Below are positions 913 through 1,453 of a DNA stretch of 64,000 nt, piece after piece. Under the pieces are notes generated by a model that was not told the DNA's origin, searched no databases, and saw only the letters and a program-made list of their open reading frames with translations. Made by a program: the position numbers and the translations under genes. The DNA is from an uncultured virus (IMG/VR IMGVR_UViG_3300028800_002448) (taxonomy: Duplodnaviria > Heunggongvirae > Uroviricota > Caudoviricetes), in IMG/VR virus record IMGVR_UViG_3300028800_002448; one strand, written 5' to 3'. Numbering within the stretch: position 1 is the first letter of the stretch; the number at the start of each line of letters is the position of its first letter.

Positions 913-1453
913 CTGGTCATGCATTGACGCTGGGCTGGAGACCCCCAATTCGAAGGATGCTGGTCCTCTCACGCACTACATAGTGGTGAGGTGTGATCTC
1001 CCGATTGGTACTCTAGCTGCTCAGCTCGTGCATGCTGCGGGCGAGTCGAGCCCTGGCAACCTGGCTGAAGGTACGCATGCGATCGTCTTGGGCGTGCCCG
1101 ATGAGAGCGCGCTGAACGAGGTCGCGGCGAAGCTCGATGCCGCTGGCGTCGAGCACGTGAAGGTGCTGGAGCCGGACGCGCCCTGGAACGGTGCGCTCAT
1201 GGCGCTAGGTGTGAAGCCTGGCTATCGCACGGAGCTGCGCAGGCACCTCTCCTACTTGCCGCTTTTCAGAGCCTCAACGATTTTGTCCGAGTCGTCCAAT
1301 GGAAGACGCCCCGCAAGGGGAGACGGTGGTTTGAATCCATCCTCGGGCACCAACTTTTTGCCGGAGTCGTCTAACGGAAGACGACCTGAAAGGGGAGACG
1401 GTGGTTTGAACCCATCCTCCGGCGCAATTTCAGGGGCCATAGCTCAACGGTAG
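884..1453 (+). CDS. Pth2/PTRHD1-like peptidyl-tRNA hydrolase domain protein (start uncertain; frame runs into the tRNA-like array)
   Basis: HYIVVRCDL..G..AAQLVHA..IVLGVPDE..L..KL..AGV.H..V.EPD..GALMALGVKP..LSYLPL matches the PTH2 fold signature; domain spans ~970-1270. Confidence 0.8.
   Translation: MTSESLGLTFWSCIDAGLETPNSKDAGPLTHYIVVRCDLPIGTLAAQLVHAAGESSPGNLAEGTHAIVLGVPDESALNEVAAKLDAAGVEHVKVLEPDAPWNGALMALGVKPGYRTELRRHLSYLPLFRASTILSESSNGRRPARGDGGLNPSSGTNFLPESSNGRRPERGDGGLNPSSGAISGAIAQR
1285..1352 (+). ncRNA. tRNA-like RNA 1; anticodon arm replaced by CCCC-GCAA-GGGG (GNRA tetraloop); encoded CCA
   Basis: acceptor GTCCGAG/CTCGGGC + A + CCA; D arm GTC-CAATGGAA-GAC; T arm GGTGG-TTTGAAT-CCATC. 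Confidence 0.8.
1360..1424 (+). ncRNA. tRNA-like RNA 2; anticodon arm replaced by CCT-GAAA-GGG (GNRA tetraloop)
   Basis: acceptor GCCGGAG/CTCCGGC; D arm GTCT-AACGGA-AGAC; T arm GGTGG-TTTGAAC-CCATC; paralogous to element 1 with stem-preserving changes. Confidence 0.8.

What the first reader, a model, noticed from the sequence alone, without database searches (positions are those of the whole stretch)
1285..1424. Two anticodon-less mini-tRNAs capped by GNRA tetraloops, with U in place of T-loop C56
Seen: elements 1 and 2 (68 and 65 nt) are diverged duplicates. Their acceptor stems differ (GTCCGAG/CTCGGGC vs GCCGGAG/CTCCGGC) but pairing is kept, and both tetraloops remain GNRA. Both T-loops read TTTGAA rather than TTCGAA, opposite a D-loop GGA. 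Inference: selection maintains an L-shaped elbow and acceptor end with no codon reading, analogous to the tmRNA tRNA-like domain or bacterial Y RNAs but standing alone.
Basis: partly seen in the sequence, partly recalled or inferred. Interest (0 to 1): 0.8.

Follow-up and report, generated by a model that had tools for sequence, protein, structure and literature searches.

The report
Anticodon-less tRNA mimics beside phage PTH2
Two small phage genes encode RNAs shaped like transfer RNAs whose codon-reading loop is sealed by a tight hairpin cap; such sealed look-alikes recur right after a peptidyl-tRNA hydrolase gene in many soil phages, so selection keeps them, but their job is untested.

Summary
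Window 1285-1349 (plus an encoded CCA) and 1360-1424 are two 65-nt cloverleaves. Both score above Rfam's tRNA threshold (37.7 and 36.9 bits; cut-off 29). ARAGORN does not call them, because the anticodon arm is a 4-bp or 3-bp stem capped by GCAA or GAAA.

They are not decaying genes or coding repeats. Relatives keep all four helices through compensatory changes, and a 1-nt indel breaks every reading frame while the pairing survives.

They sit in an operon-like row: a PTH2 peptidyl-tRNA hydrolase ORF that lacks its stop codon, then E1, E2 and three irregular tRNAs with 9-nt anticodon loops.

Among 47 distinct PTH2 loci, 17 have a tetraloop-capped, anticodon-less tRNA-like RNA as the first element after PTH2, and 20 have one within about 130 nt. 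The middle arm ranges from 3 bp to a 57-nt arm, so ribosome geometry is not conserved.

The U56 T-loop is not special; ordinary phage tRNAs carry it.

The most likely role is a processed, non-decoding tRNA mimic that acts through its acceptor/T-arm half. The main rival is a cis-acting RNase P "punctuation" signal.

The closest described things are the phage T5 "tRNA-like stable RNAs" of unknown function. Earlier notes of this scan report similar RNAs on other phage DNA.

The parts
884..1270 (+). PTH2-type peptidyl-tRNA hydrolase ORF. Its natural C-terminus ...LPLFR ends at 1270, but no stop codon follows. The frame stays open through E1 and E2 to the TAG at 1451-1453.
   Evidence: Pfam PF01981, E 5e-07. 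ORF 884..1453. Most relatives end ...LPLL[RK]*. dN/dS against the L001 ortholog is 0.30.
1271..1284 (+). A 14-nt leader ending in a run of U (U at position -1 before G+1 of E1).
   Evidence: Sequence.
1285..1349 (+). E1, an anticodon-less tRNA-like RNA with a 7-bp acceptor stem, D arm, capped middle arm, 4-nt variable loop, T arm and discriminator A.
   Evidence: Rfam tRNA 37.7 bits. Cloverleaf is the minimum-energy fold. Model R1 scores 90.1 bits.
1309..1320 (+). Middle arm of E1: a 4-bp stem capped by the GNRA tetraloop GCAA (CCCC GCAA GGGG), in place of a 5-bp stem with a 7-nt anticodon loop.
1350..1352 (+). Genome-encoded CCA after the E1 discriminator.
1353..1359 (+). A 7-nt U-rich spacer (ACTTTTT) between E1 and E2.
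1360..1424 (+). E2, the second anticodon-less tRNA-like RNA, with discriminator G and no encoded CCA.
   Evidence: Rfam tRNA 36.9 bits. Minimum-energy fold, z -2.5. Model R1 scores 90.6 bits.
1384..1395 (+). Middle arm of E2: an A.G mismatch, then 3 bp, capped by GAAA. A natural variant in run X4 changes 1384, 1386 and 1387 so that four pairs form.
1433..1507 (+). Irregular tRNA t1. Its anticodon loop can be drawn as 9 nt (TGCAGTTAG). ARAGORN calls it Thr(agt).
1514..1589 (+). Irregular tRNA t2 with the 9-nt loop CGTAATGAA. ARAGORN calls it Ile(aat).
1605..1680 (+). Irregular tRNA t3 with the 9-nt loop AGTAATGAC. The same loop recurs in several other phage lineages, including Myxococcus phage Mx1.
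4926..5408 (+). Context only: a HAD_SAK_2 (RNA-repair-associated HAD phosphatase) ORF.
   Evidence: Pfam PF18143, E 4e-30.
6639..7094 (-). Context only: a second HAD_SAK_2 ORF.
   Evidence: Pfam PF18143, E 5e-30.

Best explanation
E1 and E2 are two tandem genes for non-decoding tRNA mimics. Each is the body of a small class I phage tRNA of the Gly/Gln/Ala type, with the anticodon arm replaced by a short stem sealed with a stable tetraloop. They lie on the same strand as the upstream PTH2 gene and the three irregular tRNAs downstream, with gaps of 6 to 15 nt, so one transcript is likely.

I infer that host tRNA-processing enzymes cut them out. RNase P would cut before G+1, which follows a U-rich leader, and the 3' end would be trimmed. 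CCA is already encoded for E1. This would release stable RNAs of 65-68 nt that cannot read a codon.

What is conserved is the acceptor stem, the T arm and a D arm. The length of the middle arm is free. So the RNA most likely works in trans through the part of a tRNA that end-handling proteins see. It could be a surrogate or decoy tRNA for enzymes or host anti-phage toxins that act on the acceptor or CCA end, or a partner of the adjacent PTH2. Either way it would belong to a phage module that protects the tRNA pool.

Shown here: the fold, selection on the fold, the lack of an anticodon loop, and the recurrent position after PTH2. Inferred: co-transcription, processing, action in trans, and the identity of the partner.
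For: Fold and tRNA ancestry:
- Rfam tRNA hits above threshold and minimum-energy cloverleaves.
- The closest full-length matches to models R1 and R2 are phage Gly, Gln and Ala tRNAs with the same D arm and 4-nt variable loop.

Selection on structure:
- 8 of 20 pairs change on both sides, 97.5% of cells are paired, and 0 of 500 shuffles reach the observed values. Slid controls give 43-55% paired.
- E2 and L001e are about 79% identical by my count on alignment A1, while synonymous sites of the adjacent PTH2 are near saturation (dS about 1.0).
- The X4 variant of E2 improves hairpin pairing.

Not coding:
- L001e carries a 1-nt insertion that shifts every frame while the helices persist.

Recurrence next to PTH2:
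- Among 47 distinct PTH2 loci, 33 have a tRNA-like element starting within 140 nt downstream. Upstream, 6 do; in shuffled sequence, 3-4 do.
- By my reading, the first element is unambiguously capped in 17 loci, and at least one capped element is present in 20.

Features that favour a product acting in trans:
- Tandem diverged copies with different acceptor stems and discriminators occur in the window, L009/L208, L233, L201 and L074.
- Caps come mostly from the three classical stable tetraloop families: 19 of 27.
- RCCA is encoded in many copies.
- Capped mimics also occur between ORFs with no tRNA nearby (L074, L114).

Context:
- PTH2 and two HAD_SAK_2 RNA-repair ORFs, and irregular tRNAs.
- A paper on jumbo phages proposes phage PTH2 as part of the response to attacks on tRNA (PMC7824862, passages).
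Against: - No RNA data exist, so transcription, processing and stability are all untested. No RNA run was listed.
- No partner is identified, and no conserved sequence motif beyond tRNA features marks a binding site.
- The strict first position, 5-15 nt after the PTH2 stop, fits a cis role at least as well.
- L001e and L012e have lost the D-loop GG and the consensus T-loop, so an intact elbow is not universal.
- In the window and the L001 clade the PTH2 frame runs into the element. If RNase P cuts, PTH2 mRNA has no stop codon, which this explanation does not account for.
- Thirteen of 47 PTH2 loci have no tRNA-like element nearby.
- The covariation alignment was fitted to the model. It has only 4 sequences, and E1, E2 and L001e are close relatives.
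Confidence: 0.4

Rival explanations
1. Cis-acting punctuation element, like mitochondrial t-elements or mascRNA. The tRNA-like fold exists only to recruit RNase P and 3' processing enzymes. Cutting there separates the PTH2 message from the tRNA array and sets the mRNA 3' end. The excised RNA has no function of its own, so the anticodon arm was free to degenerate into any stable hairpin.
For: - The element is the first after PTH2, starting 5-15 nt from the stop in most of the 17 loci.
- The middle arm ranges from a 10-nt to a 57-nt arm.
- Leaders have U at -1, and RCCA is encoded in many copies.
- L074 has two capped elements between two ORFs with no tRNA nearby.
- Earlier notes of this scan reached the same reading for crAss-like phages and an archaeal virus (unchecked leads).
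Against: - Real tRNAs follow within 8 nt and could serve as the cut site, so a dedicated element seems unneeded.
- Tandem diverged copies are kept in several lineages.
- The D arm and a stably capped middle arm are conserved, although RNase P mainly needs the acceptor and T arms.
- In the window and L001, cutting would leave PTH2 mRNA without a stop codon.
Confidence: 0.3
2. PTH2-coupled ribosome rescue. The mimic would be charged and would enter ribosomes stalled at the 3' end of a message, as the tRNA-like domain of tmRNA does. It would take over the nascent chain and drop off, and PTH2 would then hydrolyse the peptidyl-RNA. The stop-less PTH2 ORF would make PTH2 synthesis itself depend on the state of rescue.
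For: - PTH2 adjacency.
- No anticodon.
- CCA is encoded in E1.
- The PTH2 ORF lacks a stop in two lineages that are 68% identical and still under purifying selection.
Against: - There is no G3.U70, and no shared identity element among the mimics.
- A full D stem occupies the region where, from recall, SmpB binds tmRNA.
- The middle-arm length is unconstrained, which argues against a fixed fit in the ribosome.
- Only 2 of 47 lineages lack the stop codon.
- ARAGORN found no tmRNA in the window.
Confidence: 0.07
3. Aminoacyl carrier for a non-ribosomal transfer reaction. The mimic would be a charged tRNA surrogate kept off the ribosome, like the non-proteinogenic tRNA-Gly of staphylococci (recalled).
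For: - An acceptor stem with CCA and no anticodon.
Against: - Pfam found no aminoacyl-transferase among the 21 ORFs scanned, and PHROGs found none among a further 30.
- Acceptor stems and discriminators differ between copies and lineages.
Confidence: 0.07
4. Decaying tRNA pseudogenes left in a phage tRNA array.
For: - The elements are derived from ordinary phage tRNAs.
- ARAGORN does not call them.
- E1 has a D-stem mismatch and E2 a hairpin mismatch.
Against: - The same architecture persists across lineages whose PTH2 synonymous sites are near saturation.
- Compensatory changes occur in all four helices.
- A population variant repairs a mismatch.
- Stable tetraloop caps recur in 19 of 27 arms.
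- The position is conserved in 17 of 47 loci.
Confidence: 0.08
5. Protein-coding repeat: either a C-terminal extension of PTH2 (ESSNGRRP.RGDGGLNPSSG, twice) or the 62-aa ORF on the minus strand at 1252-1440.
For: - Both frames are open.
- By my reading, six of the ten E1/E2 differences are synonymous in the PTH2 frame.
Against: - L001e has a 1-nt insertion that changes the encoded peptide completely (...RKSPRKRKRWFISILRR), while every RNA helix is kept.
- Relatives end PTH2 with a stop before the element.
Confidence: 0.03

Closest known systems
Phage T5 'tRNA-like stable RNAs' RNA1, RNA2 and RNA3 (NC_005859 features T5s03, T5s06, T5s07)
   Same: - They are small RNAs inside a phage tRNA gene cluster, annotated as tRNA-like with unknown function.
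- RNA3 (73 nt) folds with an acceptor stem, a T arm, ACCA and a middle arm of 6 bp with a 6-nt loop instead of an anticodon loop.
   Different: - There is no detectable sequence homology. Model R2 does not hit RNA3.
- RNA1 and RNA2 are 125-144 nt with large insertions.
- No PTH2 gene is annotated in the T5 stretch examined.
- RNA3 lacks a clear D arm and a tetraloop cap.
Canonical tRNA (Rfam RF00005)
   Same: A 7-bp acceptor stem, a D arm with GG, a T arm, a discriminator, and a score above the gathering cut-off.
   Different: The anticodon arm is 10-12 nt (3-4 bp plus a tetraloop) instead of 17 nt. There is no U33 and no anticodon, and ARAGORN does not call it.
tRNA-like domain of tmRNA
   Same: An acceptor/T-arm mimic without an anticodon that is not itself a decoder.
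   Different: There is no G3.U70, a D stem is present, and no message-like domain or tag frame exists. It is a free-standing 65-nt RNA. ARAGORN finds no tmRNA.
Bacterial Y RNA YrlA (RF02553) with Ro60/TROVE
   Same: - A tRNA-mimicking non-coding RNA linked to RNA repair or quality control.
- The related Myxococcus phage Mx1 has a TROVE gene about 0.8 kb upstream of its PTH2.
   Different: - There is no RF02553 match on E1 or E2. The only weak hit (21.8 bits against a cut-off of 69) lies in the downstream tRNAs.
- tblastn found no TROVE gene in the window or the fetched loci.
- From recall, YrlA has its ends in the Ro-binding stem, not in the acceptor stem.
t-elements of plant mitochondria and mascRNA of MALAT1
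   Same: A tRNA-like fold placed directly after a message and cut by RNase P or RNase Z. There is no decoding, and the anticodon arm is reduced.
   Different: Those systems are eukaryotic or organellar. Here the element sits in a phage operon ahead of real tRNAs, often in tandem copies, and no processing data exist.
Polycistrons of irregular tRNAs from forest and peat soil metatranscriptomes (Mukai et al. 2017, PMC5389517, section 16 read in full)
   Same: - Soil or peat origin.
- Rows of non-canonical tRNA sequences.
- The authors conclude that some may be charged but are not used in translation.
   Different: Those RNAs keep anticodon loops, have 8/4 acceptor/T configurations, and are linked to toxin-antitoxin genes of bacteria. 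They are not capped and not next to PTH2.

Membership tests
Canonical tRNA (RF00005) | Score at or above Rfam's gathering cut-off | tested here: met
   37.7 and 36.9 bits against a cut-off of 29.
Canonical tRNA (RF00005) | A 5-bp anticodon stem with a 7-nt loop carrying U33 and an anticodon | tested here: not met
   The arms are 12 and 10 nt, with 4-nt GCAA and GAAA loops. ARAGORN makes no call.
Canonical tRNA (RF00005) | Elbow nucleotides: G18 G19 and the T-loop U54 U55 C56 R57 A58 | tested here: inconclusive
   E1 and E2 have GG and UUUGAA, that is U56 in place of C56. U56 also occurs in ordinary phage tRNAs. L001e and L012e lack both features.
tmRNA tRNA-like domain | G3.U70 alanine identity pair | tested here: not met
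   E1, E2 and L001e have C3-G70. L012e has A3-U70.
tmRNA tRNA-like domain | A joined message-like domain with a tag reading frame | tested here: not met
   ARAGORN reports no tmRNA. The element is 65 nt in all.
tmRNA tRNA-like domain | Binding of SmpB and EF-Tu, and entry into stalled ribosomes | not testable with these tools
   Needs biochemistry.
YrlA / Y RNA | Match to RF02553 | tested here: not met
   No hit on E1 or E2. A hit of 21.8 bits (cut-off 69) lies at 1560-1629.
YrlA / Y RNA | An adjacent Ro60/TROVE gene | tested here: not met
   tblastn with the Mx1 TROVE protein found nothing in the window or loci. Pfam on 21 ORFs gave no TROVE domain.
Phage T5 tRNA-like stable RNAs | Location in a phage tRNA cluster, a tRNA-like acceptor/T arm, and no anticodon loop | tested here: met
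Phage T5 tRNA-like stable RNAs | Sequence homology | tested here: not met
   R2 gave four hits in the 16-kb T5 stretch, none on RNA1, RNA2 or RNA3.
Phage T5 tRNA-like stable RNAs | Accumulates as a stable RNA in infected cells | not testable with these tools
   No RNA run was listed for this sequence.
t-element / mascRNA-type punctuation | A tRNA-like fold directly after a message | tested here: met
   E1 starts 15 nt after the natural PTH2 end. In most relatives the element starts 5-15 nt after the stop.
t-element / mascRNA-type punctuation | Cleavage by RNase P at its 5' end and by RNase Z or E at its 3' end | not testable with these tools
   Needs in vitro cleavage or end mapping.

The most novel reading that the evidence does not exclude
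PTH2 and the capped tRNA-like RNA form a dedicated two-part phage counter-defence system. The RNA would be a non-decoding acceptor-end decoy, in two specificities in this phage. It would draw off host toxins that modify or cut the tRNA 3' end or its attached amino acid. PTH2 would strip blocked aminoacyl or peptidyl groups so that both decoy and tRNAs are recycled. In this phage, RNase P cutting at the decoy would also make the PTH2 message stop-less, tying PTH2 output to the state of ribosome rescue.
Probability: 0.2. Interest if true: 0.85.

Novelty: new variant of a known kind. Interest (0 to 1): 0.6.

Why it matters
Phage tRNAs are now understood as replacements for host tRNAs destroyed by anti-phage nucleases. 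An RNA that keeps the tRNA body but has deliberately lost the anticodon cannot be a replacement.

If it is a decoy or a partner of PTH2, it would be a new kind of RNA-based counter-defence, and it would give a function to the long-unexplained tRNA-like stable RNAs of phage T5. If it is only a cut-here signal, it shows that phages use tRNA punctuation of messages as mitochondria do.

Either way, tRNA finders miss these genes, or miscall the longer ones as odd tRNAs. For example, ARAGORN called L023e Ala(ggc) and L195 'tRNA-???'. The recurrent placement after PTH2 gives a simple handle for finding more and a testable pairing.

Tried and rejected
Searches that found little or nothing:
- A tight DNA pattern in viral contigs gave 0 hits.
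- A hairpin-plus-T-stem pattern in metagenome contigs gave 3 loci. Two are the L001 phage again. The third (L158) had no R1 match and no tRNA, so I treat it as a chance match.
- The same pattern in genome contigs gave 0 hits. The close sequence family is therefore rare, and no prophage copy was found.
- blastn of 1200-1700 against cultured phages found no match.
- No whole genome is held for this window.
The replacement was mis-specified for E1/E2 and returned only ordinary Gly, Gln, Glu, Ala and Leu tRNAs. It served only to show the ancestry of the D arm.

Sequencing runs:
- No RNA holder was listed.
- The contigs laid were DNA only. X1 may be the sample the window came from.

Counts I did not use:
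- The automated 'capped' count of 26 of 47 is inflated, because RNAfold closes the 9-nt GUAAUGA loops into 4-nt loops. I replaced it with a manual reading.
- A background census of capped elements in 113 T-arm-pattern loci was unreliable. Variable arms of class II tRNAs and misfolds were counted as caps, so I give no background rate from it. It did reveal two further capped mimics away from PTH2 (L114 and L074).

Other negative results:
- The promoter and terminator scan of 500-2100 found no promoter-like site and one terminator-like site inside the PTH2 ORF, no more than in shuffles.
- PHROGs on 30 ORFs and tblastn of two proteins against cultured phages did not identify the host or a close cultured relative.
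- A TROVE/Ro60 partner was sought and not found.

Ideas considered from the sequence alone and dropped for lack of any test:
- Pairing of the GUAAUGA loop with the initiator tRNA anticodon.
- Stop-codon display by that loop.
- A boxB-like reading of the GAAA hairpin.
- The CCUAAG similarity to a tetraloop receptor.

Papers:
- Seven searches found no paper describing anticodon-less tRNA-like RNAs linked to phage PTH2.
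Full report
**What is in the sequence**

Window 1285-1424 holds two tandem elements on the + strand.

- E1 (1285-1349) reads as follows: a 7-bp acceptor stem GTCCGAG/CTCGGGC, then TC, then a D arm (GTCC AATGGA AGAC). Next come a G and the hairpin CCCC-GCAA-GGGG, a 4-nt variable loop, the T arm GGTGG-TTTGAAT-CCATC and discriminator A. An encoded CCA follows at 1350-1352.
- E2 (1360-1424) has the same plan, with acceptor GCCGGAG/CTCCGGC, the hairpin (A)CCT-GAAA-GGG(G), the T-loop TTTGAAC and discriminator G.

By my reading the copies differ at 10 of 65 positions. 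One difference is a double-sided compensatory change in the acceptor stem.

ARAGORN calls only the three downstream tRNAs. Rfam's fast whole-window scan also misses E1 and E2. A search of 1200-1750 places both above the tRNA gathering score (37.7 and 36.9 bits against 29). In that alignment the anticodon region is reduced to 4 and 6 unaligned letters. Each element folds alone into the cloverleaf as its minimum-energy structure (z -2.1 and -2.5).

**The U56 T-loop is not special**

The T-arm pattern with TTTGAA occurs in more than 116 viral loci. I gave 18 of these to ARAGORN. Those with calls include ordinary Gln, Asn, Cys, Val, Lys and Arg tRNAs. All R1 hits in 77 of these loci were of normal tRNA length, 68-74 nt.

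**Surroundings**

Upstream lies a PTH2-type peptidyl-tRNA hydrolase ORF (Pfam PF01981). Its natural C-terminus (...LPLFR, ending at 1270) is not followed by a stop codon. The frame runs through E1 and E2 to a TAG at 1451-1453.

Downstream, at gaps of 6-15 nt, lie three tRNAs (1433-1507, 1514-1589, 1605-1680). Their anticodon loops can only be drawn as 9 nt or with a sixth stem pair: TGCAGTTAG, CGTAATGAA and AGTAATGAC.

Two HAD_SAK_2 RNA-repair-type ORFs lie 3-5 kb away. The window looks like a phage: it has a tail-fibre ORF with collagen repeats and few database matches. No whole genome is held for it. DNA runs that hold the stretch are peat and rhizosphere metagenomes.

**Close relatives**

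- PTH2 relatives in viral contigs (28 loci) include one phage, seen in L001-L003 and again in L159 and L160, whose PTH2 is 68% identical.
- Directly after its PTH2 this phage has one copy of the element, L001:3318-3383 (87.5 bits with model R1).
- Compared with E2, its D stem (GTCT/AGAC to GACT/AGTC) and its hairpin (to CCGC-GAAA-GCGG) changed on both sides.
- It also carries a 1-nt insertion in the D-loop. That insertion shifts the PTH2 reading frame, so the peptide read through the element is unrelated to that of the window. The insertion would likewise break the mechanical minus-strand ORF. This rules out protein coding as the conserved property.
- A more distant copy follows the PTH2 of a low-GC phage (L012:3342-3405). 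It has a 3-bp stem with a 6-nt loop and an encoded ACCA, and scores 30.4 bits with R1 and 59.3 with R2.

On the four-sequence alignment, which was fitted to the model, 8 of 20 pairs change on both sides and 97.5% of cells are paired. None of 500 shuffles reaches the observed values, and slid controls give 43-55% pairing.

A contig in run X4 carries a natural variant of E2. Positions 1384, 1386 and 1387 change so that the A.G mismatch becomes a pair and all four pairs form.

PTH2 of the window and of L001 has dN/dS 0.30 with dS about 1.0. E2 and L001e are about 79% identical by my count on A1, which is more conserved than neutral sites would be.

**A wider class next to PTH2**

Folding the gap after PTH2 in other loci showed tRNA-like cloverleaves that ARAGORN and Rfam miss. 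Their middle arm is a capped hairpin of varying length:

- L006 (6 bp + CUUG)
- L009 (two in tandem)
- L011 (a 57-nt arm, ACCA)
- L018 and L021
- L023 (UUCG; miscalled Ala by ARAGORN)

A profile search then gave 54 PTH2 loci, 46 of them distinct, or 47 with the window. A descriptor script looked for candidate elements. It required fully paired acceptor and T stems, a G53-C61 pair and a T-loop of 6-8 nt.

| Sequence searched | Loci with a tRNA-like element within 140 nt (of 47) |
|---|---|
| Downstream of PTH2, + strand | 33 |
| Downstream, reverse complement | 12 |
| Upstream of PTH2 | 6 |
| Shuffled downstream (three runs) | 3-4 |

I then read the middle arms one by one. I dropped arms that can be drawn with a 7-9-nt loop, namely the GUAAUGA-loop tRNAs and the ambiguous L206, L217 and L232.

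- The first element is unambiguously capped in 17 of 47 loci: window, L191, L194, L195, L198, L201, L203, L207, L208, L209, L215, L216, L219, L221, L227, L233 and L236.
- Three more (L197, L213, L224) have a capped element in second place.
- Thirteen loci have no tRNA-like element nearby.
- The rest start with a tRNA that has an anticodon-type or expanded loop.

In most cases the capped element begins 5-15 nt after the PTH2 stop.

Among 27 capped arms the terminal loop is GNRA in 10, CUUG in 6, UUCG in 3 and other in 8. Arm length runs from 10 to 57 nt.

Capped mimics also occur away from PTH2.

- L114 is 66 nt, with a GAAA cap and the same T arm as E1. It scores 47.5 bits with R1.
- L074 has two in tandem between an unknown ORF and what I read, from its translation, as a radical-SAM QueE-like ORF. 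No tRNA is called there.

**Ancestry**

The best full-length matches to the models are phage Gly, Gln and Ala tRNAs that share the D arm (TCGTCYAAYGG...GACG) and the 4-nt variable loop. The mimics align to them with a gap of 5-7 nt in the anticodon arm.

**What this implies**

What is kept is the acceptor stem, the T arm and a D arm. What is removed is the anticodon loop, which is replaced by a thermodynamically stable cap. What is free is the length of that arm.

A free arm length argues against any role that needs the fixed anticodon-to-CCA distance of a ribosome-bound tRNA. It points instead to proteins that read the upper half of a tRNA. From general knowledge these include RNase P, 3' processing enzymes, the CCA-adding enzyme, some synthetases, EF-Tu, peptidyl-tRNA hydrolases, and toxins that modify the 3' end or the attached amino acid.

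U-rich leaders with U at -1, and frequent encoded RCCA, fit RNase P substrates. That preference is recalled, not tested here.

Two readings remain.

- **A processed product acting in trans.** It would be a tRNA surrogate, either a decoy or a PTH2 partner. Several features favour it: tandem diverged copies with different acceptor stems, conservation of the D and capped arms, stable caps, occurrence without neighbouring tRNAs, and the repeated pairing with one protein gene, which recalls Ro60 and its Y RNA.
- **A purely cis 'cut here' signal.** The strict first position after the ORF and the unconstrained arm favour it.

I put the first at 0.4 and the second at 0.3. No RNA data exist for either.

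The phage context fits a module that protects the tRNA pool.

- Phage PTH2 has been proposed to clear peptidyl-tRNA after host attacks on tRNA (PMC7824862, passages).
- Phage tRNAs with altered anticodon stems or loops escape host nucleases (PMC10264068, from the search listing's start of abstract; PMC12445682, abstract).
- A toxSAS toxin picks its tRNA targets by the acceptor stem (bioRxiv 10.1101/2024.07.05.602228, from the search listing's start of abstract).
- That bacterial Pth reverses TacT-type acetylation of aminoacyl-tRNA is recalled, not read here.

**The missing stop codon**

Only the window and the L001 clade lack the PTH2 stop. Other relatives end ...LPLL[RK]* or carry their own short extensions.

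The extension is not conserved as protein, yet PTH2 itself is under purifying selection in both lineages. If RNase P cuts at the element, the message has no stop codon.

This is unexplained. It resembles the way ArfA synthesis is tied to trans-translation in E. coli (recalled) and underlies the low-probability rescue reading. An open frame of about 60 codons at 62% GC is expected by chance in roughly one case in six (my estimate), so a tolerated loss of the stop is also possible.

**Comparison with known things**

- The elements pass Rfam's tRNA score but fail the defining anticodon arm.
- They fail the tmRNA tRNA-like domain tests: no G3.U70, a D stem present, and no message domain.
- They fail the YrlA tests: no RF02553 match on them, and no TROVE gene in the window or loci. 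However, the cultured relative Myxococcus phage Mx1 (PTH2 57.8% identical) has a TROVE gene 0.8 kb upstream of its PTH2.
- The nearest described objects are the 'tRNA-like stable RNAs with unknown functions' annotated in the phage T5 tRNA region. T5 RNA3 folds with an acceptor stem, a T arm, ACCA and a non-anticodon middle arm, but shows no homology to model R2.
- Irregular tRNA polycistrons from peat and forest soil, some charged but not used in translation, have been reported (PMC5389517, section 16). Those RNAs keep their anticodon loops.
- Seven paper searches found no description of capped tRNA-like RNAs linked to PTH2.
- Earlier notes of this scan report anticodon-less tRNA mimics in other phages, one of them in an array next to an RNA ligase, Thg1 and Pth2. 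These are unchecked leads, but the scan has met this kind of RNA before on other DNA.

**Verdict**

The finding is real and selected. It is better described as one member of a recurrent class of tetraloop-capped, non-decoding tRNA mimics that phages place directly after PTH2. It is a new variant of a known but uncharacterised kind. The mechanism remains inferred.

Noticed in passing
window 1268-1453; L001 3304-3504: The PTH2 ORF has no stop codon at its natural end and reads through the tRNA-like genes. This occurs only in the window and the L001 clade among 47 distinct PTH2 loci. PTH2 is still under purifying selection in both (dN/dS 0.30). If RNase P cuts at the elements, the message has no stop codon.
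   Followed up: partly
window 1514-1589 and 1605-1680; L001 3389-3544; L009 3486-3642; L012 3563-3630; L161 3248-3321; L204, L205, L212, L214, L242: tRNAs or tRNA-like RNAs with a 9-nt 'anticodon' loop of the form (A/C)GUAAUGA(C/A/G) recur near PTH2 in many phage lineages. Their acceptor stems are unrelated and their bodies are sometimes degenerate. One is an unannotated tRNA in cultured Myxococcus phage Mx1 (OR576727.2, about 60058-60131). The loop, not the body, is what is conserved. ARAGORN reads it as Ile(aat).
   Followed up: partly
L001-L028, L154, L173, L191-L244 (ARAGORN calls): These phage contigs carry many tRNAs with A at the wobble position: AAU, AAG, AAA, AGU, AGA, ACC, AUG, AUA, AAC and ACG. 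As far as I recall this is rare in bacteria outside tRNA-Arg(ACG). Several are class I bodies with a 'Leu' anticodon.
   Followed up: no
window 1433-1507; L206 1093-1165; L004 2746-2818 (- strand): A third loop motif, G-UUA-G, appears (TGCAGTTAG, CGTTAGA, TGTTAGAG). ARAGORN calls the L206 copy 'tRNA-Stop (tta)', which raises the possibility of an ochre-suppressor-like anticodon with a non-U base at position 33.
   Followed up: no
L010 3403-3518; L014 3394-3506; L011 3413-3517; L194 1015-1108; L227 1096-1207: tRNA-like elements of 94-116 nt carry large inserted arms, some with extra hairpins, in the same arrays. ARAGORN does not call them or miscalls them.
   Followed up: no
L074 279-344 and 355-424; L114 259-325: Capped anticodon-less tRNA mimics also occur away from PTH2. 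L074 has two in tandem between an unknown ORF and an ORF I read from its translation as radical-SAM QueE-like. L114 has one after an unknown ORF in a low-GC phage.
   Followed up: partly
L161 105-1754 (Myxococcus phage Mx1): A TROVE/Ro60-type ribonucleoprotein gene lies 0.8 kb upstream of the Mx1 PTH2 gene, with a tRNA-Gly between them. No Y-RNA-like match was found in that 5.3-kb stretch at E up to 1.
   Followed up: partly
window 4926-5408 (+) and 6639-7094 (-): Two paralogous HAD_SAK_2 ORFs (the HAD domain of 'Swiss Army Knife' RNA-repair proteins) lie near the tRNA module.
   Followed up: no
window 11401-14049 (-) and 13776-14918 (-): An 882-aa ORF combines GT2, GT4/GT1 and TPR domains. 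A second glycosyltransferase ORF overlaps it in another frame on the same strand. Both are unusual in a phage structural region.
   Followed up: no
L245 14849-15567 (phage T5 RNAX): Model R2 hits a tRNA-like stretch (15433-15504, 21.2 bits) inside the 719-nt T5 'RNAX' stable RNA of unknown function.
   Followed up: no
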